A stretch of 35,763 bases of DNA from the UHGV virus genome UHGV-0260253; one strand, given 5' to 3'. The stretch comes from a virus. Made by a program: the position numbers and the translations under genes. The notes below the pieces were generated by a model. It saw only the letters and a list, made by a program, of their open reading frames with translations, did not search any database and was not told the DNA's origin. Below are positions 25,675 to 35,763 of the stretch, one piece after another (within the stretch, counting starts at the first letter, position 1; the number at the start of each line of letters is the position of its first letter).

Positions 25675-26168
25675 TAAGCCCCCACGTAATTCCCTGAGAG
25701 ATACCACTCTTCACCTGATGCAGCCCGCTTACTGCTTTTCCGTAAACACCGTTCACGACGCGCCAGAAAATTGTTTCGTTCTGGCTGGGAGTGGCTTTCA
25801 CGGAATGCCGCCATCCACACCGTTGCAGCACGACGGTATAAGCCCCTGGACTCCAGTTCTTCCGCCTGGCGGGTCAGGCACAAAATCACCCGCGGGTCGT
25901 TAGTGCCGACATAGAAATTGCGCACAGGTCTGGTTTCACGAACTGGTTGTGGTTCCGGATCCTGCGCTCTCTCAGTCAGGCGCGGGAAATGTCTGCGTGT
26001 ATCTCCTTCACAACGGTGAGCCACACGCCCACTCTGACGTAACTTGCTTGCTGACTGCAGAACGCGCTGCCGTGAGTAACCAGCAAAAGCATCCGCAATG
26101 TCTCCGGAAGTACACCCCGGATGGGCTTCAATGAATTTCTGAACTTCATTCAAAAGACTCATAATCAC
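25674..26168 (-). CDS. Hypothetical protein with PerC-like C-terminal region
   Basis: 164 aa; ESRGLYRRAATVWMAAF resembles the PerC-family core as recalled; ATGA overlap with O-like gene. Confidence 0.4.
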   Translation of the reverse strand: MIMSLLNEVQKFIEAHPGCTSGDIADAFAGYSRQRVLQSASKLRQSGRVAHRCEGDTRRHFPRLTERAQDPEPQPVRETRPVRNFYVGTNDPRVILCLTRQAEELESRGLYRRAATVWMAAFRESHSQPERNNFLARRERCLRKSSKRAASGEEWYLSGNYVGA

Positions 26169-27106
26169 CCCCTGAATCCTGCCGGGATCTGGCTGTAGTC
26201 CACGTTGTCGTAACTGGATTTGAAGTACGGGTCTTCGCGTTTTTCGGTGTACGTGCTTACGGACGGCGATAAGCGCAGGGAAAGCTCATCCCATTTTTCC
26301 CGCAGCTTCGACGGGCTGAGCACGTTACGGCACCAGAACGGATCGCGGCTGACGCGGCTGTACATCTCGCAGATTTGTTTGTGAGTACGACCATCCTGCA
26401 CACACATCAGGCGAATTTCGTTTGCCCAGGCTGTCCAGTTTGGTTCTTTGGGACGAACCACCTCGCCGTCACATTCGGCGGCCTGCTCGTACAGGGCGAT
26501 GATTTTTTTCCAGAGCCACTGTGCACAGGTCAAATCATCCTGCGTTCCCCACTGGCGCTTTTTAGGGCTGAATACAACCGCATCAGGATGGCGAGTTAAA
26601 AAATCCTGTTCAGCCTTCTGCGTGTCCGGTTGCGAAGCGTCCGGACGAGAAGTTTTTTTATCTGACGGATCATGTTTTGATTTTACTGACGGATCCCCGC
26701 CAGATTCTGACGGGTGAAAACCCGCTTTTTTGCCAGATTTCGACGCATCAAATTTTGACGGGTCAGATTTTGATGCGTCAGATTTTGACGGGTCAGAATC
26801 TGACAGTTGAGAAAGTGCCGCTGCCTGAAGCTTTGCAACGTTAAGCTGATAGACGTTCGACGCATTGCGGTTACCCTGGCGACGCGCCTTACGCGTTAAC
26901 CAGCCTTCTGCTTCCAGCCGTGCGATAGCCGTTCTTACAGTACTCACCCCTGCGCCAATCTGGCGGGCAATGGTTTCAATTGATGGCCAGCACACACCTT
27001 CGTCATTACTGAAATCAGCCAGGCGGGCCATAATTGCCACGCTGGATAATTTCATGCCTGACGCTGCGCAACCATCCCATACATAGCCGGTTAATTTAGT
27101 GCTCAT
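26165..27106 (-). CDS. Replication initiator, O-like (N-terminal wHTH; iterons inside gene)
   Basis: 313 aa; N-terminal HTH region VSTVRTAIARLEAEGWLTRKA; central low-complexity DPSKSDASKSDPSKFDASKS encoded by the iteron array. Confidence 0.7.
   Translation of the reverse strand: MSTKLTGYVWDGCAASGMKLSSVAIMARLADFSNDEGVCWPSIETIARQIGAGVSTVRTAIARLEAEGWLTRKARRQGNRNASNVYQLNVAKLQAAALSQLSDSDPSKSDASKSDPSKFDASKSGKKAGFHPSESGGDPSVKSKHDPSDKKTSRPDASQPDTQKAEQDFLTRHPDAVVFSPKKRQWGTQDDLTCAQWLWKKIIALYEQAAECDGEVVRPKEPNWTAWANEIRLMCVQDGRTHKQICEMYSRVSRDPFWCRNVLSPSKLREKWDELSLRLSPSVSTYTEKREDPYFKSSYDNVDYSQIPAGFRG
26660..26808. repeat. Iteron array (candidate replication origin) with adjacent AT-rich stretch
   Basis: Eight copies of T(C/T)TGACGG-type motif at 26661, 26685, 26706, 26739, 26755, 26770, 26785, 26799; four tight 15-bp units TCAGATTTTGACGGG from 26747 to 26808. 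Confidence 0.65.
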
Positions 27107-28342: not shown

Positions 28343-29017
28343 ATGAAAACAATCCATGACATCCGGCGGTCTAACGCCAGAAAACTGAGAGATGGTGTTG
28401 GAGGGAATTCTTCCTTTGCCACTATGATTGATCGCGAGCCAACCCAGACCAGCAGGTTTATGGGAGATGGTGCTACTAAAAATATCGGTGACAGCATGGC
28501 ACGACACATCGAAAAATGTTTCGACCTGCCTGTCGGATGGCTCGATCAAGAACACCAGACAACGAACATCACAAAAAAACCTGATGTTTCAATCACTAAT
28601 AAACAAATCACATTAGTCCCTGTCATATCATGGGTACAGGCCGGAGCATGGAAAGAAGTTGGATATTCTGAGGTTGATTTGAGCACAGCAGAAACGTATC
28701 CCTGCCCTGTACCCTGTGGGGAAATGACTTATATCTTGCGGGTGATAGGTGATTCAATGATTGATGAGTACCGCCCGGGAGACATGATTTTTGTCGATCC
28801 TGAAGTACCTGCCTGCCACGGTGACGACGTTATTGCATTGATGCACGATACAGGTGAAACCACCTTCAAAAGGTTGATAGAAGATGGGACACAGCGTTAT
28901 CTCAAAGCGTTAAACCCAAACTGGCCTGAGCCTTACATTAAGATCAACGGTAATTGCTCTATAATTGGAACTGTGATTTTCTCAGGAAAACCAAGAAGAT
29001 ACAAAATCAAAGCCTAA
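28343..29017 (+). CDS. CI-like repressor (HTH plus S24 LexA-like peptidase domain)
   Basis: 224 aa; N-terminal HTH (ATKNIGDSMARHIEKCFDLPVGWLD), C-terminal autocleavage motifs VIGDSM (Ser) and TTFKRL (Lys). Confidence 0.85.
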   Translation: MKTIHDIRRSNARKLRDGVGGNSSFATMIDREPTQTSRFMGDGATKNIGDSMARHIEKCFDLPVGWLDQEHQTTNITKKPDVSITNKQITLVPVISWVQAGAWKEVGYSEVDLSTAETYPCPVPCGEMTYILRVIGDSMIDEYRPGDMIFVDPEVPACHGDDVIALMHDTGETTFKRLIEDGTQRYLKALNPNWPEPYIKINGNCSIIGTVIFSGKPRRYKIKA

Positions 29018-29030
29018 TCAATGTTTATGA

Positions 29031-29052
29031 ACCTGCTTCGGCAGGTTTTTTT
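29031..29052 (+). terminator. Rho-independent terminator after repressor gene
   Basis: ACCTGC-TTCG-GCAGGT hairpin followed by TTTTTTT. Confidence 0.6.
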
Positions 29053-29056
29053 ATAC

Positions 29057-29085
29057 TTGACAATGTACCTATGAGATACATAATG
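29057..29085 (+). promoter_or_regulatory. pL-like early promoter with embedded operator
   Basis: TTGACA-N17-ATAATG; spacer contains ATGTACCTATGAGATACAT (29063-29081) and a second ATGTACC at 29083-29089. Confidence 0.55.
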
Positions 29086-29188
29086 TACCCAAGAGAAACA
29101 ACAAACAGGCAGGACGCCCACGAAGTAGCCGCCGGTGGCGTATGAATGACCGGATGATTCGTTAAATACTATGTGTAAGAGAGCGCAA

Positions 29189-29392
29189 ATGAACCGTTAT
29201 TTCACATGCTCGTTTTGTGGCGCAAACGAGCTGCAGGCAAAAAAAATCATCGCCAAAGGCGGAAAAGATGAAGTTGCTATCTGCTCTGAGTGCGTAGTCT
29301 TGTGTGTCGGGGCATTAATCAATATCAGCACAACTATTCAGTTCACACCAAATGAGAATGCGCCTTTAGATGCGCGGAAATCTGGAGGTTAA
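29189..29392 (+). CDS. Small ClpX-type zinc-ribbon protein
   Basis: YFTCSFCGANELQAKKIIAKGGKDEVAICSECV: C-x2-C-x19-C-x2-C with CSFCG, as in the ClpX N-terminal zinc-binding domain (recalled). Start may be 29171 or 29189. Confidence 0.55.
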   Translation: MNRYFTCSFCGANELQAKKIIAKGGKDEVAICSECVVLCVGALINISTTIQFTPNENAPLDARKSGG

Positions 29393-29400
29393 AGAACAAA

Positions 29401-29676
29401 ATGAAAGTCCAGATTTTAAACAATAGTGGTGAAGTCGTTTGGTCATACGACATAGCCGCTCCTGTAGATCAGAGCGGCGATAGCTGGACCAATGGGAAAC
29501 ATCAGATTATGGCTGGAGTTGTGTTCTCTTTACGCCGTGCTTTAGAACAAGCTGAAGTCTTTCCATCAGACCCTGAATGGAAATGGCCTTTTTCTATTTG
29601 TCCAAATTCGGAGAGTACATTTCAGAAAATTGGTCAGAAAGTCGCACTCGAAGAGCATCAGCCAACTGTTTCCTGA
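29401..29676 (+). CDS. Hypothetical early protein (91 aa)
   Basis: Starts 9 nt after previous stop with GGAGG upstream; 3' end overlaps a convergent ORF. Confidence 0.4.
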   Translation: MKVQILNNSGEVVWSYDIAAPVDQSGDSWTNGKHQIMAGVVFSLRRALEQAEVFPSDPEWKWPFSICPNSESTFQKIGQKVALEEHQPTVS

Positions 29677-29839
29677 TTTTTTCAGGTAACTCGTCGGCAT
29701 CGCAGAAACAACAACGCTCGATCATGTTGAAAGCCGATTCGTAGAACTGTTTTTGCTGAGTGTCGCTGAGACAGGAAAAGAGCGACGTTACGATGATTTT
29801 ATTAATTGCATTATCAAGTTCTTTTTCATCAAAAGTCAT
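29594..29839 (-). CDS. Hypothetical protein (81 aa), antisense to early operon
   Basis: AAGGA SD 9 nt upstream of ATG; overlaps the 3' end of the plus-strand ORF by 83 nt. Confidence 0.35.
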   Translation of the reverse strand: MTFDEKELDNAINKIIVTSLFSCLSDTQQKQFYESAFNMIERCCFCDADELPEKIRKQLADALRVRLSDQFSEMYSPNLDK

Positions 29840-30279: not shown

Positions 30280-30642
30280 ATGGCTAGCGAACGCAGTACT
30301 GATGTGCAGGCATTTATCGGGGAGCTGGACGGCGGCGTATTTGAAACCAAAATCGGCGCAGTTCTCAGTGAAGTCGCTTCCGGTGTGATGAACACGAAAA
30401 CCAAAGGTAAGGTCTCACTCAACCTGGAAATCGAACCATTTGATGAGAACCGTGTGAAAATCAAACACAAACTCTCATATGTTCGCCCGACTAACCGCGG
30501 GAAAATTTCCGAAGAAGACACCACCGAAACGCCGATGTATGTCAATCGCGGTGGTCGCCTGACTATTCTGCAGGAAGACCAGGGACAATTACTGACTCTT
30601 GCCGGTGAGCCTGACGGAAAACTACGCGCAGCAGGTCATTAA
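30280..30642 (+). CDS. Hypothetical protein (120 aa, possibly YfdP-like)
   Basis: Start chosen at ATG 30280 (MASERSTDVQ) with GAGGAG SD; the long upstream extension lacks an SD. Confidence 0.45.
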   Translation: MASERSTDVQAFIGELDGGVFETKIGAVLSEVASGVMNTKTKGKVSLNLEIEPFDENRVKIKHKLSYVRPTNRGKISEEDTTETPMYVNRGGRLTILQEDQGQLLTLAGEPDGKLRAAGH

Positions 30643-30707
30643 TATCGTTATTAATAAACTGATTATTTATCTCATCACTGAATATCTTTATATAGTGAGG
30701 ACTTATT

Positions 30708-31532
30708 ATGTCTCAGAACTTAGACGCAACCGCAATTAATCAAATCCATGCCCTTATTTCTGCTCAGGGTGTTAATGAAATTATCAGTAAGATTGGTGCC
30801 GATGCTGTGGCATTGCCTGAGAATTTCCGCATTCATGATCTGGAAAAATTTAATTTAAATCGCTTCCGTTTCCGTGGTGCGCTTTCCACTGCCAGCATCG
30901 ATGACTTTACCCGTTATTCTAAAGATCTTGCAGATGAAGGCACCCGCTGCTTTATCGATGCTGATAATATGCGTGCCGTCAGTGTGCTTAACCTGGGTAC
31001 TATTGATGAACCAGGTCACGCAGATAACACCGCCACTCTCAAACTGAAAAAGACAGCACCGTTCTCTGCTCTGTTGTCTGTTAACGGCGAGCGCAACTCC
31101 CAGAAGTCACAGGCAGAATGGATTGAAGACTGGGCCGACTACCTTGTGGGCTTTGATGCTAATGGTGACGCCATTCAGGCAACAAAAGCGGCTGCGGCAG
31201 TCCGTAAAATCACGATTGAAGCAAACCAGACCGCTGATTTTGAAGATAATGACTTCAGCGGCAAACGCTCCCTGATGGAGTCTGTCGAAGCGAAGACCAA
31301 AGACATTATGCCAGTGGCATTTGAATTTAAATGCGTTCCGTTTGAAGGCCTGAAAGAACGTCCGTTTAAATTACGCCTCAGCATTATCACTGGCGATCGT
31401 CCTGTACTGGTTCTGCGCATTATTCAGCTGGAAGCAGTGCAGGAAGAAATGGCTAACGAATTTCGTGATCTGCTTGTTGAGAAATTCAAAGACAGCAAAG
31501 TAGAAACCTTCATTGGTACTTTCAGCGCCTGA
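30708..31532 (+). CDS. DUF2303-like protein (YfdQ-like)
   Basis: 274 aa, GTGAGGA SD; size and neighbourhood match the CPS-53 yfdQ family as recalled. Confidence 0.5.
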
Positions 31533-31544
31533 TTTCATTACTGC

Positions 31545-31568
31545 AAATGCCCCTGCGGGGGCATTTAT
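31545..31568 (+). terminator. Hairpin (possible attenuator) after DUF2303 gene
   Basis: AAATGCCCC-TGCG-GGGGCATTT perfect 9-bp stem; weak U-tract, so termination efficiency is uncertain. Confidence 0.35.
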
Positions 31569-31659
31569 GGAAACGTAATTAACTCAATAATCGCCGGATG
31601 ATGAGGGCTTCCTTTTACCAAAATTCAGTATGGCGCAGCACATATACGTGGAGAACAAA

Positions 31660-32208
31660 ATGTCATTTATTAAAACTTTTTCCGGGAAGCATTTTTATTA
31701 TGACAAGATAAATAAAGACGACATCGTTATTAACGATATCGCGGTTTCCCTTTCAAATATCTGTCGCTTTGCAGGACATCTTTCACACTTCTACAGCGTC
31801 GCCCAACATGCGGTGCTTTGCAGCCAGCTGGTACCGCAGGAATTTGCTTTTGAAGCGTTAATGCATGATGCAACAGAAGCTTATTGTCAGGACATCCCCG
31901 CGCCACTGAAACGCCTTCTTCCTGACTATAAACAGATGGAAGAAAAAATAGACGCCGTGATCCGTGAGAAATACGGGTTACCCCCGGTGATGAGTACGCC
32001 CGTGAAATATGCCGATCTCATCATGCTGGCAACCGAACGCCGCGATCTCGGGCTTGATGATGGCTCTTTCTGGCCTGTACTGGAAGGCATCCCGGCAACA
32101 GAGATGTTCAACGTGATTCCACTGGCACCGGGCCATGCCTACGGGATGTTTATGGAACGCTTTAAAGAGCTGCATAAGATACATAAACAATCCAGACAGC
32201 GAAATTAA
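31660..32208 (+). CDS. HD-domain phosphohydrolase (YfdR-like)
   Basis: Start at ATG 31660 (MSFIKTFSGK) with GGAGA SD; HD-motif residues SVAQHAV...LMHDATEAY. Confidence 0.65.
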   Translation: MSFIKTFSGKHFYYDKINKDDIVINDIAVSLSNICRFAGHLSHFYSVAQHAVLCSQLVPQEFAFEALMHDATEAYCQDIPAPLKRLLPDYKQMEEKIDAVIREKYGLPPVMSTPVKYADLIMLATERRDLGLDDGSFWPVLEGIPATEMFNVIPLAPGHAYGMFMERFKELHKIHKQSRQRN

Positions 32209-32251
32209 CTAGTGAAATAGTTTTGTAGCAAAAGAAATGAGGTTATCAAAA

Positions 32252-32497
32252 ATGCTTCAAATGCTGACACTTGAGGAATGGGCTACGGAAAAATACAGAA
32301 GTAATCCTCCAAGTGTGTCCACATTGCGTCGTTATGCTAAGCAGAATTTATTTTGTCCACCGGCAATGAAACAAGGTCGACTATGGCGAGTGCGTGAGGA
32401 CGCAGAGTTAGTTGGGGAATTAGTTACTCCTGTCATCAAGAAAAGTGATTCTATTATTCTACAAAGGATTTTAAGTAATGGCAGCCAGACCACGTAA
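32252..32497 (+). CDS. xis: Excisionase, lambda Xis-like
   Basis: MLTLEEWATEKYRSNPPSVSTLRRYAKQNLFCPPAMKQGRLW parallels lambda Xis MYLTLQEWNARQRRPRSLETVRRWVRECRIFPPPVKDGREY (recalled); overlaps int start by 20 nt. Confidence 0.75.
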   Translation: MLQMLTLEEWATEKYRSNPPSVSTLRRYAKQNLFCPPAMKQGRLWRVREDAELVGELVTPVIKKSDSIILQRILSNGSQTT

Positions 32498-33608
32498 AAA
32501 TAATGTTTCAGTCCCGAACTTATATCCGCTCTATAGCAGAAAAGTAAATAAAGTCTATTGGCGATATAAGCATCCAGTGACCGGGAAGTTTCATTCTTTG
32601 GGCACAAACGAAGCTGAAGCCATTGCTATTGCCACTGAGGCCAATACACGCCTGGCTGAGCAAAGAACCCGGCAGATTCTAGCTATCAGTGACAGGATCG
32701 CAACCAGCAAAGGAAAAGCAATCACAACGTCAACCTGGTTAGATCGCTATCAAGCAATCCAGGATGACAGACTGAAAAGTGGCGATATAAAGCTCAACAC
32801 CTATAAACAGAAAGCTAAACCAGTATCCTTGCTCAGGGAACGAGCAGGAATGAAGTTAATTTCATCCGTTGATGTAAGGGATATAGCACAATTGCTTGAC
32901 GAGTATATCACTGCTGGGCAACCGAGGATGGCGCAAGTAGTCCGCTCCGTTCTAATTGATGTATTCAAGGAGGCACAACACTATGGGGAGGTCCCTCCTG
33001 GCTATAATCCAGCATTAGCGACCAAACAGCCCAGAAGAAAAATTACCCGACAACGGTTAAGCCTTGAAGAATGGCAAAAAATCTTTGATATCGCAGATGC
33101 CAGTCATCGTTATATGGGGAATGCCATGCTGTTAGCACTGGTTACCGGTCAGAGGTTAGGTGATATCTCGCGTATGAAATTTAGCGATATTTGGGATGAT
33201 CATCTCCATGTCATCCAGGAAAAAACTGGGAGCAAAATCGCCATCCCGCTTTCCCTGCGTCTCAATGCGATTAACTGGAGTTTGCGAGATGTAGTAGCCC
33301 GCTGCCGTGACTATGCTGTCAGTCCATATCTTGTACATTTTTTTCGCACAACCTCACAGGCTGAACGTGGCGCACAGGTAAAAGCTAATACACTAACGAT
33401 GAACTTTAGCAAGGCGCGTGATCTGGCAAAAATTGATTGGGGTACTGGAACTCCAGCAACTTTTCATGAACAAAGATCTTTATCTGAACGCCTTTACAAG
33501 GAGCAAGGGATAGATACCAGAAAACTGCTGGGCCATAAAACCCAGCAGCAAACCGATCGTTACCATGATGACAGGGGAAAAGATTGGAATAAGTTAGAAT
33601 TAAAATGA
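32478..33608 (+). CDS. int: Tyrosine integrase, lambda family
   Basis: 376 aa, AAGGA SD; C-terminal catalytic region HFFRTT...HEQRSLSERLY...LLGHKT...RY. Confidence 0.9.
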   Translation: MAARPRKNNVSVPNLYPLYSRKVNKVYWRYKHPVTGKFHSLGTNEAEAIAIATEANTRLAEQRTRQILAISDRIATSKGKAITTSTWLDRYQAIQDDRLKSGDIKLNTYKQKAKPVSLLRERAGMKLISSVDVRDIAQLLDEYITAGQPRMAQVVRSVLIDVFKEAQHYGEVPPGYNPALATKQPRRKITRQRLSLEEWQKIFDIADASHRYMGNAMLLALVTGQRLGDISRMKFSDIWDDHLHVIQEKTGSKIAIPLSLRLNAINWSLRDVVARCRDYAVSPYLVHFFRTTSQAERGAQVKANTLTMNFSKARDLAKIDWGTGTPATFHEQRSLSERLYKEQGIDTRKLLGHKTQQQTDRYHDDRGKDWNKLELK

Positions 33609-33631: not shown

Positions 33632-34198
33632 TTAACACACTTCAGAGCCACTTAACTGGAAAGTTATAGGAGATATTTTACCTCTAAACCTATAAGGTTT
33701 GGATAGTAGTAACTTTTCCATAACCCCATTATTAATTACTTTTTTTGCATACTGTTCATCAGTAAGTTCTTTCCCTAAAAAAGAGAATCTATTACATACA
33801 ATCCATATATTAAAATCAGTAATTTTCACATCTTCTTTTAAAAAACTATCAGAAAAACGCTCTTGCATGAAATCGTCTACTGCTGTCTTATACTTGCATC
33901 GTATATTTTCTTCATCTAATCGGGAAACTTTTGCAACATTCTTCAACTCAATTATGTAAAGTGCAAAACGATTATCCCCTCGCTTAATAACTAAAATATT
34001 ATCTGGTGAAGGAGGTGTAATAGGCAACCGAAGCGAATTATAATATGAATCCACAGAAAGATTGATTATTTTTTGGCAATCTAGTTTTCCGTTATCCTGA
34101 TAAAAATCAGCATCCAATTTGACAAACACATTATTTTCTTCGACTTCATCACGAAGTAAAGCAGTTAACTCAGGAGTTGCAAGAATTTTTTCGATCAT
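33632..34198 (-). CDS. Hypothetical protein with PD-(D/E)xK-like motif (candidate nuclease effector)
   Basis: 188 aa, AT-rich, no histidines; PD...(17 aa)...ELK pattern (SPDNILVIKRGDNRFALYIIELK); ATGA-coupled to the upstream ATPase gene. Confidence 0.45.
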   Translation of the reverse strand: MIEKILATPELTALLRDEVEENNVFVKLDADFYQDNGKLDCQKIINLSVDSYYNSLRLPITPPSPDNILVIKRGDNRFALYIIELKNVAKVSRLDEENIRCKYKTAVDDFMQERFSDSFLKEDVKITDFNIWIVCNRFSFLGKELTDEQYAKKVINNGVMEKLLLSKPYRFRGKISPITFQLSGSEVC

Positions 34199-35625
34199 TC
34201 TTTGCCATCCTCGTCTTCCATTTCGTCATTTATAGTTTGAAAGATATCCATCTTTTCATCAAATAACTCATTCGTAGCTGGGCCAAAGTTATTATCCTCA
34301 ATCCCTAACTCATCAATTTCTAGCGGTAAAGCAACACTTCCTGTTCCTGTCTTTTTAAATACTACTGATGATACATTATTTTTATGGATACCTGTCATGC
34401 AGTTCTCAGCAGTGTTCTTAATCACAAGATTATTAACCTTGTTGAATATAAAATTACTATGAGATGTCACAATAAGTTTAACATTTGCATCTATTAATTT
34501 TGCAAATATCTCTGTTAATTTTATTTGAATTTCCGGATGTAAATGAGCTTCTGGTTCTTCAATCATAATTAATGGTTTAGGTTCTGGACGTTTGAATTCC
34601 CTAGCCCCGCTTCCGATGCGTCTCATACCCGATTCGTCAGCTTTAGTAAGCACGTATCTTAAATATGATACAATAGGTGCCAACTCTGAAACCATCGAAG
34701 ATGTTGATGACAACTCTAATCTAAGATTTGTATTATTAGGATAAAAAAGAAGCTGTTTTGTCTGTGGATTAAATTCCACTCTACCATCTAATATTTTATC
34801 TTCTATTTCTTTGGCAAGGATATTTAATTTCTTATCTTCATAGTTCCGTTTAACAACTCTAATATCAGACAACTTAATGAAGTAATCACTAACAGGCTCA
34901 GATATACTTGGCAATTCAATTTTTTTTGATAAGAAAGATCTATTCTTAGATAACTCTGCAATTATTTGACCAAAAGCACTCAGAGCTTGATACAAACCCG
35001 AACGACTTGCTGGCAAATAATGGACACTCTTAAGAGTCGGTGTTAAAATTGTATTAACCATAACCATGAATGTTCTTTGAACAAAGAAGTGATTGTATTC
35101 GCCAATCAATCTGTTTATAGCTTCTTCATAATTATCGTTATTTTCCCTATAATAAATACTGGATGAATTTGCGCCATGGTGAAAAGTTCTATTTCTTTTT
35201 GATTTTTTTATATAAAATTGTTGAGCGTGCTTGATATCACTTACACATAATTTGTTATTTTCGAGTTTTATGTCTACAGATAAATCATTACCAACCAGAC
35301 TGATCTTAGCTGGTTCATTATTAAACTGATTTTGTAGATTGTTAAGTGATACAAATGTATTTGAAAAAGAATTAGTTAACTCTGCTAGTAAATAACTCGC
35401 AAACATATTTTTTATGTCTTCATTCACTAACATTGAAACATTCATATCTGTTTCATCACTTTCTATAAAACCTGCAAATTCTTTCCTCCTTATATCTGAA
35501 GTCATTTCAATATGATCGAAATCAAGATAATAATCGAAGGAATTGATTATATATGAGCGACGTTGTTTTAGTTGCAGTAAAGATTTAACAATTAAATAAA
35601 TTGCGGTTATTGCATATGATTTACC
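34195..35625 (-). pseudogene. ABC-type (OLD/AAA_15-21-like) ATPase, N-terminus disrupted by IS1
   Basis: Frame open upstream of the annotated ATG to the IS1 junction; native residues GKSYAITAIYL (Walker A remnant) abut IS1. Downstream motifs: VHYLPASRS, Walker B LIMIEEPEAHLHP, H-loop LIVTSHS. Confidence 0.65.
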
Positions 35626-35763
35626 GGTGATGCTGCCAACTTACTGATTTAGTGTATGATGGTGTTTTTGAGGTGCTCCAGTGGCTTCTGTTTCTATCAG
35701 CTGTCCCTCCTGTTCAGCTACTGACGGGGTGGTGCGTAACGGCAAAAGCACCGCCGGACATCA
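35626..35763 (+). mobile_element. IS1, insA-proximal end (partial, continues beyond window)
   Basis: GGTGATGCTGCCAACTTACTGATTTAGTGTATGATGGTGTTTTTGAGGTGCTCCAGTGGCTTCTGTTTCTATCAGC... matches the IS1 terminal inverted repeat and insA 5' region as recalled. Confidence 0.85.
35681..35763 (+). CDS. insA: IS1 InsA, N-terminal fragment (truncated by window end)
   Basis: GTG start then [26 protein letters not shown], the InsA zinc-finger N-terminus. Confidence 0.7.

What the first reader, a model, noticed from the sequence alone, without database searches (positions are those of the whole stretch)
30280..32208. YfdP/YfdQ/YfdR-like trio including an HD-domain hydrolase in the early-left operon
Where lambda carries exo/bet/gam, this phage carries a 120-aa unknown, a 274-aa DUF2303-like protein and an HD-domain protein with intact H...HD residues. 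HD-domain enzymes in phages can act on nucleotides or signalling molecules, so this block may be a nucleotide-metabolism or counter-defence module rather than recombination functions. The family assignments are from memory and need confirmation.
Basis: partly seen in the sequence, partly recalled or inferred. Interest (0 to 1): 0.5.

Follow-up and report, generated by a model that had tools for sequence, protein, structure and literature searches.

The report
Known yfdP-yfdQ-yfdR prophage early-gene cassette
The three genes are near-identical copies of the E. coli K-12 prophage genes yfdP, yfdQ and yfdR, a very common early-gene block of temperate phages whose HD enzyme is a weak deoxynucleotidase that binds the host replication initiator DnaA; the block is already known, but its function is only partly understood.

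Summary
Window 30280-32208 encodes three co-oriented genes between the cI repressor and xis/int of an SfV-like prophage. Their products are 99%, 99% and 96% identical to E. coli K-12 CPS-53 YfdP, YfdQ (DUF2303) and YfdR (an HD-domain 5'-deoxynucleotidase). The same block occurs in 3012 of 5426 complete E. coli genomes and in SfV, SfIV, mEp460 and Stx phages, so it is already known.

None of the three matches a known recombination, replication or defence family. The YfdQ model has no whole-fold analogue in the released PDB. One solved YfdQ structure exists (9o7m), but I found no paper for it.

My additions from 84 diverse loci:
- yfdP sits directly upstream of yfdQ in 83 of them, so the two look like an obligate pair.
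- The HD gene accompanies the pair in 52, and its catalytic residues are conserved.
- The block sits between repressor and integrase, and sometimes lies beside Rec modules, so it does not replace exo/bet/gam.

Best reading, inferred from K-12 experiments: a host-takeover module aimed at host replication initiation and the dNMP pool. One caveat: yfdS and yfdT, required for that K-12 phenotype, are absent here. The counter-defence idea has no support. Interest is low to moderate.

The parts
30280..30642 (+). yfdP: a 120-aa protein of unknown function and the obligate upstream partner gene of yfdQ.
30708..31532 (+). yfdQ: a 274-aa acidic DUF2303 protein.
31660..32208 (+). yfdR: an HD-domain phosphohydrolase (5'-deoxynucleotidase, DnaA-binding in K-12). 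The ORF extends upstream to 31630, but the likely start is 31660.
   Evidence: It is 169/176 identical to K-12 YfdR. It matches phrog_318 (E 8.4e-110) and PDB 2gz4 Atu1052 (E 2e-13), with H, HD and D aligned. H60, H79, D80, E83, D88 and D129 are at least 97% conserved in 101 homologues linked to yfdP-yfdQ. The last ~6 residues aligned with K-12 YfdR diverge, and nucleotide similarity to SfV ends near 32169.
29029..29084 (+). A terminator-like hairpin after cI, followed by a pL-like sigma-70 promoter that would drive the early-left operon.
   Evidence: These are consensus scans only: a hairpin at 29029-29048, and TTGACA-16-CATAAT at 29057-29084 with 11 of 12 matches. SfV annotates a terminator at the equivalent place. 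Function is inferred, not shown.
32237..33608 (+). xis (32237-32497) and a lambda-type integrase (32478-33608) immediately downstream. They mark the end of the early-left operon.
   Evidence: Pfam Exc E 1.3e-11; Arm-DNA-bind_1 E 2e-37 plus Phage_integrase E 2.1e-16. phrog_629 excisionase E 3e-30.
28343..29017 (+). A cI-type repressor with an S24 peptidase domain, forming the upstream boundary of the operon.
   Evidence: Pfam Peptidase_S24 E 1.5e-26. It is collinear with SfV cI.

Best explanation
Shown: this is the yfdP-yfdQ-yfdR cassette, a conserved delayed-early gene block carried between the repressor and the integrase of temperate phages of Gammaproteobacteria. Here it lies in an SfV-like prophage that has an O-like initiator but no helicase gene and no recombination module of its own.

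Inferred mechanism: the cassette is a host-takeover module, expressed from the pL-type operon after induction or infection, that acts on host DNA replication and deoxynucleotide turnover.
- YfdR is a metal-dependent HD phosphohydrolase with weak 5'-dNMP phosphatase activity. In the K-12 orthologue (96% identical) it also binds DnaA domain I at Phe46 and competes with DiaA and DnaB. This damps initiation at oriC and would leave host DnaB available to the phage origin.
- YfdQ is an acidic protein with no fold analogue among released PDB structures, and a solved relative (9o7m) is deposited with 36 chains. It is genetically required for that YfdR effect.
- YfdP is the obligate partner of YfdQ, probably in a complex formed through its conserved C-terminal tail.

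What is shown: gene identity, conservation, gene linkage and an intact HD site. What is taken from K-12 experiments: DnaA binding and inhibition of initiation. What is inferred: the phage-side purpose and the YfdP-YfdQ complex.
For: Identity to K-12 YfdP, YfdQ and YfdR is 99%, 99% and 96%.

Evidence from K-12 experiments (PMC4776307):
- Multicopy yfdQ + yfdR + (yfdS or yfdT) inhibits initiation in vivo and in vitro. yfdQ and yfdR are both required; yfdP is not.
- The authors themselves propose a role analogous to lambda P in the ancestral phage.

Evidence from this window and related loci:
- The HD catalytic residues are at least 97% conserved in 101 homologues linked to yfdP-yfdQ.
- yfdP lies directly upstream of yfdQ in 83 of 84 diverse loci. 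The HD gene is on the same strand in 52 of 84, mostly immediately downstream.
- Neighbouring genes are DNA-metabolism and lysogeny genes: S24 repressor, integrase, SSB, DEDD and Rv2179c-like exonucleases, YqaJ, RecT and Erf.
- The window phage encodes an O-like initiator but no helicase or loader, so it must recruit host DnaB.
- A preprint reports that deleting yfdQ abolishes, and producing YfdQ restores, plaque production by a resident phage (10.1101/413146).
Against: - The K-12 phenotype needed yfdS or yfdT in addition to yfdQ and yfdR; yfdQR alone did not suppress. Neither yfdS nor yfdT has a homologue in this window (best tblastn E 0.35).
- The effect was seen only with multicopy supply. 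Deleting yfdQRST had no replication phenotype, and the authors concede it could be an overexpression artefact.
- YfdQ did not bind YfdR or DnaA tightly in pull-down assays.
- The YfdP-YfdQ pair occurs without the HD gene in about 38% of diverse loci, including phages of Vibrio and Xanthomonas. The core function of the pair therefore cannot depend on YfdR-DnaA binding.
- No lytic-growth phenotype of the cassette in its own phage has been reported in the papers I could search.
Confidence: 0.4

Rival explanations
1. YfdP-YfdQ is a DNA replication, recombination or repair accessory complex that acts on phage DNA (for example end protection, an SSB or exonuclease partner, or a new type of annealing or mediator protein). 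The HD enzyme would be an optional add-on.
For: In distant phages the pair is embedded among SSB, DEDD exonuclease, Erf, YqaJ and RecT genes. The pair is far more conserved than its link to the HD gene (83 of 84 loci against 52 of 84). [quoted passage not shown] The solved relative 9o7m holds 36 chains, which is compatible with a large ring or filament of the kind annealing proteins form.
Against: No sequence or fold similarity to Red-beta/RecT, Erf/Rad52, Sak4/RecA, gp2.5, Gam/Ku or SSB was found. The cassette coexists with complete Rec modules, which led Casjens and colleagues to judge a hidden recombinase unlikely (PMC12315714). YfdQ is uniformly acidic (median pI 5.1). The chain count of 9o7m could simply reflect crystal packing.
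Confidence: 0.25
2. The cassette is purely a nucleotide-pool module. YfdR dephosphorylates dNMPs (as the T5 Dmp type of enzyme does) to reshape the pools, and YfdP-YfdQ regulate or scaffold it.
For: phrog_318 and phrog_8467 are annotated as dNMP phosphatases. PGAP and EcoGene name yfdR a 5'-deoxynucleotidase. The HD catalytic residues are under strong conservation. One neighbour is a dATP/dGTP pyrophosphohydrolase.
Against: [quoted passage not shown] It falls below the curated cut-offs for the YfbR families (Pfam 25.0 against 25.9; NCBIfam 20.4 against 122). Destroying dNMPs is hard to reconcile with a phage that needs dNTPs. The pair often occurs without the HD gene.
Confidence: 0.15
3. The HD enzyme (with the DEDD exoribonuclease found nearby in some phages) degrades nucleotide second messengers, or YfdP-YfdQ act as a sponge or inhibitor of a host defence system.
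For: Early-left operons are known to accumulate anti-defence genes (general knowledge). An Rv2179c-like 3'-5' exoribonuclease lies downstream in 12 of 84 loci, and there is one Tad2-like and one T7 gp5.9-like neighbour. A large homo-oligomer (9o7m, 36 chains) would be compatible with a sponge.
Against: There is no direct evidence of any kind. No similarity to known anti-defence folds was found in the PDB searches. The cassette is retained in 55% of E. coli genomes, including the cryptic CPS-53 prophage, and it has a documented host-protein target, DnaA. The PADLOC search was negative, although that library covers defence rather than anti-defence.
Confidence: 0.1

Closest known systems
E. coli K-12 cryptic prophage CPS-53 (KpLE1) yfdP-yfdQ-yfdR(-yfdS-yfdT)
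   Same: Gene order and spacing are the same, and the proteins are 99%, 99% and 96% identical. The similarity begins at yfdP's ribosome-binding site.
   Different: The window lacks yfdS (DUF551) and yfdT; yfdR is followed directly by xis and int. The window prophage still has cI, cro and the early operons, which CPS-53 has lost.
Shigella phage SfV orf32-orf31-orf30, and the SfIV, mEp460, cdtI and Stx2 phage equivalents
   Same: The early-left region is about 97% identical in nucleotide sequence, with the same position between cI and int.
   Different: SfV has orf29 and orf28 (yfdS/yfdT-like) between yfdR and xis, and gtr O-antigen genes beyond int. The window instead has an AAA-ATPase gene pair beyond int.
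Lambdoid phages LLS, ST64B and phiNP, the 'no Rec module' type (Genome Res 2025, PMC12315714)
   Same: They carry the same three-gene cluster in the early-left operon and lack exo/bet/gam-type genes. ST64B and phiNP YfdQ are 57-59% identical to the window protein.
   Different: Those phages are siphoviruses or podoviruses with other structural modules. That paper also stresses that the cluster occurs in phages with full Rec modules, such as ArgO145.
YfbR, the E. coli HD-domain 5'-deoxynucleotidase (PDB 2paq), and Atu1052 (PDB 2gz4)
   Same: They share the HD fold and the metal-binding H...HD...D residues.
   Different: YfdR falls below the YfbR family cut-offs. Its reported nucleotide affinity is much lower, and it has a DnaA-binding activity not described for YfbR.
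Lambda P protein, B. subtilis SirA, and Dps: proteins that bind DnaA to restrain initiation
   Same: They are functional analogues. Each binds DnaA to inhibit oriC initiation, and SirA and Dps target domain I.
   Different: They have no sequence or fold relationship to the Yfd proteins. Lambda P binds DnaA domain III and is also the helicase loader.

Membership tests
YfdQ / DUF2303 (Pfam PF10065) | A full-length match to the family profile above the curated gathering score. | tested here: met
   E 4.7e-91, 305.2 bits against a cut-off of 26.6, covering profile positions 2-269 of 269. The protein is 270/274 identical to K-12 YfdQ.
YfdQ / DUF2303 (Pfam PF10065) | A relationship to the solved YfdQ structure 9o7m. 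| tested here: met
   phmmer E 3e-44 and profile E 2.7e-59 over residues 1-272. The coordinates are not in the fold libraries, so the fold comparison itself could not be made.
YfdP (Pfam PF27127 / phrog_204) | A sequence match to the family and orthology to K-12 YfdP. | tested here: met
   phrog_204 E 1.2e-49, and 119/120 identity to K-12 YfdP. All homologues carry precomputed PF27127. The local Pfam copy returned no match.
YfdP-YfdQ gene pair | yfdP immediately upstream of yfdQ on the same strand. | tested here: met
   The gap is 65 nt in the window. The same arrangement holds in 83 of 84 diverse loci and 80 of 80 close loci.
HD-domain metal-dependent phosphohydrolase superfamily | The conserved H...HD...D metal-binding residues. 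| tested here: met
   H60, H79-D80 and D129 are present and align to Atu1052 (2gz4). They are at least 97% conserved in 101 homologues.
YfbR-type 5'-deoxynucleotidase (Pfam PF12917; NCBIfam NF003009 equivalog) | A score above the curated family cut-off. | tested here: not met
   Pfam 25.0 bits against 25.9. NCBIfam 20.4 bits against 122. The protein is a YfdR-type HD protein, not a YfbR equivalog.
YfdR 5'-deoxynucleotidase and DnaA-binding protein (K-12 b2361) | Orthology to the characterised protein. | tested here: met
   169/176 identical residues. PGAP names the same gene 'yfdR: 5'-deoxynucleotidase' in matching genomes.
YfdR 5'-deoxynucleotidase and DnaA-binding protein (K-12 b2361) | dNMP phosphatase activity, and binding to DnaA domain I (Phe46). 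| not testable with these tools
   Known only for the K-12 protein (PMC4776307).
YfdQRS/T replication-initiation inhibitor gene set (Noguchi and Katayama 2016) | The minimal set is yfdQ + yfdR + (yfdS or yfdT). | tested here: not met
   yfdS and yfdT are absent from the whole window (best tblastn E 0.35). yfdQR alone did not suppress hda-185 in K-12.
Phage recombination modules (Red exo/bet/gam, RecET, Erf, Sak, Sak4, gp2.5) | Profile or fold similarity of any of the three proteins to a known SSAP, exonuclease or Gam. | tested here: not met
Known defence-system proteins (PADLOC-DB) | A match to any PADLOC model. | tested here: not met
   No families for YfdP, YfdQ or YfdR at E up to 0.01. The library does not cover anti-defence proteins, so counter-defence is not excluded by this test.

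The most novel reading that the evidence does not exclude
YfdP-YfdQ is an obligate two-protein assembly with a fold not found among released PDB structures, conserved across temperate and some lytic phages of Gammaproteobacteria (Escherichia, Vibrio, Pseudomonas, Xanthomonas, Marinobacter). It would be a general phage device of a new mechanistic class. It might control the host replisome or initiator (with the HD protein YfdR as a DnaA-targeting adaptor in enterobacterial phages), or it might be a new kind of DNA-end or annealing factor, or a signal sponge. The unpublished 36-chain structure 9o7m would be its first view.
Probability: 0.25. Interest if true: 0.6.

Novelty: already known. Interest (0 to 1): 0.25.

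Why it matters
The cassette is one of the commonest blocks of poorly understood genes in E. coli. It is present in 55% of complete genomes, including K-12, Shigella serotype-converting phages and Stx phages. A firm function would annotate thousands of genomes and could explain how lambdoid phages without a helicase or a Rec module of their own commandeer host replication. For this particular window nothing new is revealed: the genes are near-identical to characterised K-12 genes. That redirects experiments towards the YfdP-YfdQ pair.

Tried and rejected
2. The paper behind PDB 9o7m. A full-text search for the code found only unrelated papers. The YfdQ, YfdP, YfdR and DUF2303 searches found no structural paper. 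The entry is not in either fold library.
3. Zimmerman et al. 2008, the paper on YfdR enzymology, is not held in the library. I relied on its summary in PMC4776307.
4. A 73-sequence alignment was too diverse for the search for related loci. A 30-sequence subset sharing the motif QKxxAEW[LIM]ED worked.
5. The first IMG/VR scan returned only 99%-identical E. coli prophage copies. These were useful for linkage counts but not for diversity.
6. Apparent YfdP-YfdQ fusion proteins (P0040, P0131, P0194) are shorter than YfdP plus YfdQ and 95-99% identical to E. coli sequences. I treated them as probable frameshift or assembly artefacts, not real fusions.
7. Rfam and tRNA scans of the window found nothing.
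8. The SrsR regulator boxes reported upstream of K-12 yfdP are not upstream of yfdP here. They lie inside the O-like gene, so that regulation does not transfer to this prophage.
9. A plasmid or ICE origin is unlikely. Only 23 of 72,556 plasmid records carry YfdQ, and many of those are phage-sized or chromosome-sized records.
Full report
**1. What is in the sequence**

Between the cI-type repressor (28343-29017) and xis/int (32237-33608), the + strand carries three consecutive ORFs: 30280-30642 (120 aa), 30708-31532 (274 aa) and 31630-32208 (192-aa ORF).
- The 274-aa protein is a full-length DUF2303 protein (PF10065, E 4.7e-91).
- The 120-aa protein matches phrog_204 (E 1.2e-49), and all its homologues carry the newer Pfam family PF27127.
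- The third protein matches phrog_318 'deoxyribonucleoside 5' monophosphate phosphatase' (E 8.4e-110). It also matches the HD protein Atu1052 (PDB 2gz4, E 2e-13), with the H, HD and D residues aligned.
- It stays just under the curated cut-offs for the YfbR families (25.0 against 25.9 bits in Pfam; 20.4 against 122 in NCBIfam).

A GGAG ribosome-binding site precedes the ATG at 31660, and none precedes 31630. The K-12 and SfV proteins start at that Met, and it is conserved in 99 of 101 homologues. The HD gene is therefore most probably 31660-32208 (182 aa).

**2. Identity**

The window is an SfV-like prophage. The best phage matches are vB_EcoM-689R6 and SfV, at about 95-97% nucleotide identity across the early-left region. 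In SfV the same genes are orf32, orf31 and orf30.

Compared directly with E. coli K-12 MG1655 CPS-53, the three proteins are 119/120, 270/274 and 169/176 identical to YfdP, YfdQ and YfdR. The 1.9-kb block is found at 90% nucleotide identity or better in 3012 of 5426 complete E. coli genomes, where PGAP names the genes yfdP, yfdQ and 'yfdR: 5'-deoxynucleotidase'. It also occurs in hundreds of IMG/VR contigs: 519 confirmed relatives, of which the 80 kept are 99% identical in protein sequence. The cassette is therefore already known and named.

**3. What the literature says**

- Noguchi and Katayama 2016 (PMC4776307) isolated yfdQ-yfdR-yfdS-yfdT as a multicopy suppressor of over-initiation. The minimal set was yfdQ + yfdR + (yfdS or yfdT), and yfdP was dispensable. 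Purified YfdR bound DnaA in a manner dependent on Phe46 in domain I, and it moderately competed with DiaA and DnaB. Extracts inhibited oriC replication in vitro. Deleting the genes had no phenotype, and the authors noted that the result could be an overexpression artefact. They suggested a role like that of lambda P in the ancestral phage. They also cite Zimmerman 2008 for YfdR being a structural homologue of the 5'-deoxynucleotidase YfbR with much lower nucleotide affinity.
- A 2025 Genome Research paper on lambdoid phages (PMC12315714) describes exactly this trio in LLS, ST64B and phiNP. [quoted passage not shown] It concludes that the genes are unlikely to be hidden recombinases.
- A Wood-laboratory preprint (10.1101/413146) reports that deleting yfdQ abolishes, and producing YfdQ restores, plaque production by a resident phage.

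**4. Structure and family searches**

- YfdQ has one solved relative, PDB 9o7m 'YfdQ protein', with 36 chains (E 3e-44 by sequence, 2.7e-59 by profile). I found no paper for it, and it is not in the fold libraries.
- YfdQ is uniformly acidic: pI 4.97 here, family median 5.1.
- None of the three proteins hits a PADLOC model.

**5. New comparative result**

A full HMMER scan finds 1839 YfdQ clusters at 50% identity; the 150 best listed are single-domain proteins, mostly about 270 aa. I collected 84 diverse loci. Four are phages of Vibrio, Pseudomonas and Xanthomonas. Eighty are genome loci, drawn from a one-genome-per-species collection (a few species contribute more than one locus), mostly Enterobacterales, Pseudomonadales, Marinobacter, Cellvibrio and Hahella. 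Their YfdQ proteins are 32-38% identical to the seed sequence.
- With HMMs built here, a YfdP homologue lies directly upstream of yfdQ on the same strand in 83 of 84 loci. The typical gap is 30-65 nt.
- A YfdR-type HD gene is on the same strand in 52 of 84 loci, and in about 42 it is immediately downstream.
- The HD catalytic residues (H60, H79, D80, E83, D88, D129) are at least 97% conserved in these homologues, so the enzyme activity is under selection.
- Pfam annotation of 165 flanking genes gives the following counts. Upstream: S24 repressors 10, YqaJ 3, RNase_T 2, RecT 1. Downstream: Rv2179c-like 3'-5' exoribonuclease 12, integrases 10, SSB 5, ParB-HTH 3. Single cases include a Tad2-like protein, a T7 gp5.9-like protein and a dATP/dGTP pyrophosphohydrolase.
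- The pair is rare on plasmids (23 of 72,556 records).

Three conclusions follow. yfdP-yfdQ is the invariant core of the cassette and the HD gene a frequent accessory. The cassette belongs to the repressor-to-integrase early operon of temperate phages. It sits among DNA-metabolism genes and alongside canonical Rec modules rather than in place of them.

**6. This phage's own context**

The early-right operon encodes Cro, a CII-like activator, an O-like replication initiator, RusA, a Q-like antiterminator and methyltransferases. It encodes no helicase or loader and no exo/bet/gam, RecT or Erf. The phage thus belongs to the 'no Rec module' type and must use host DnaB.

yfdS and yfdT are absent from the window (best tblastn E 0.35). 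They are present in 59 and 42 of the 81 closely related loci (SfV plus the 80 IMG/VR contigs). Nucleotide similarity to SfV ends near 32169, and xis follows yfdR directly.

**7. Mechanism**

The best-supported reading (confidence about 0.4) is a delayed-early host-takeover module directed at host replication initiation and deoxynucleotide turnover.
- YfdR is an HD phosphohydrolase that also occupies the DiaA- and DnaB-binding face of DnaA domain I.
- YfdQ, with its obligate partner YfdP, is the large assembly genetically needed for that effect.
- For a phage that must borrow DnaB, blocking the DnaA-DnaB contact is a plausible benefit.

Several points weigh against this reading:
- The K-12 phenotype required yfdS or yfdT, which are missing here.
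- It was seen only with multicopy supply.
- YfdQ showed no tight binding to YfdR or DnaA.
- The YfdP-YfdQ pair occurs without the HD gene in about 38% of diverse loci.

The rivals are:
- a DNA replication, recombination or repair accessory complex (0.25), supported by the SSB, exonuclease and Erf neighbourhoods and by the weak MMS and H2O2 sensitivity;
- a pure dNMP-pool function (0.15);

**8. Verdict**

Counter-defence is unsupported, and the existing DnaA literature was missed. The feature is already known, and interest is low to moderate.

Noticed in passing
window 33632-35505 (- strand), and 35626-35763: Just beyond int lie two co-oriented low-GC genes (GC 0.33-0.39). One encodes a 436-aa ABC/AAA-type ATPase that matches the defence models NsnB (E 1.9e-18), PD-T4-4_A, AriA and GajA. 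The other encodes a 188-aa protein with no family match. Together they look like a candidate two-gene anti-phage defence cargo at the prophage end. Only 8 of 5426 complete E. coli genomes have this yfdR-xis-int-hypothetical-ATPase arrangement. The window ends in IS1.
   Followed up: partly
window 26748-26803: Four 11-bp repeats with a 15-bp period (TCAAATTTTGA, TCAGATTTTGA twice, and TCAGATTCTGA on the - strand) lie inside the O-like replication initiator gene (26165-27106, - strand). They are probably the phage ori iterons. Three of the four are identical, and the fourth nearly so, to the 'SrsR boxes' footprinted in the K-12 yfdO/yfdP spacer (PMC9181523). The strongest SrsR site in K-12 may therefore be a relic phage origin, brought next to yfdP by the CPS-53 deletion.
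   Followed up: partly
window 29171-29392 (+): The first ORF after the pL-like promoter encodes a 73-aa protein with a ClpX-type C4 zinc finger (PF06689, E 1.4e-10; phrog_5259). This is an unusual small early protein that might mimic or titrate the N-domain of ClpX.
   Followed up: no
window 29401-29676 (+) and 29594-29839 (-): Two convergent ORFs overlap by about 80 nt at their 3' ends. Both have strong PHROG matches (phrog_3195 E 8e-64; phrog_3311 E 3e-55), so both look like real genes. The minus-strand gene interrupts the early-left transcription unit, and a non-coding gap of about 440 nt follows before yfdP. That gap is conserved with SfV at both ends but variable in the middle.
   Followed up: no
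window 32169-32237: This is a recombination joint. Similarity to SfV ends about 40 nt before the yfdR stop codon. The last ~6 residues aligned with K-12 YfdR differ and the window protein ends in a different tail. The yfdS/yfdT genes found in most relatives are replaced by a direct junction to a different xis/int pair, annotated xisE/intE in matching genomes.
   Followed up: partly
L153 (Caviibacterium pharyngocola), 29-868 and 1037-1825: This is the only one of 84 diverse loci with no detectable YfdP homologue upstream of yfdQ. A 280-aa ORF sits there instead.
   Followed up: no
L083 6212-7524 (Pseudomonas phage vB_PstS-pAN) and 12 genome loci: An Rv2179c-like or DEDD 3'-5' exoribonuclease recurs next to the HD phosphohydrolase, downstream of yfdP-yfdQ, in 12 of 84 loci. 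This may be a second conserved accessory of the cassette.
   Followed up: partly
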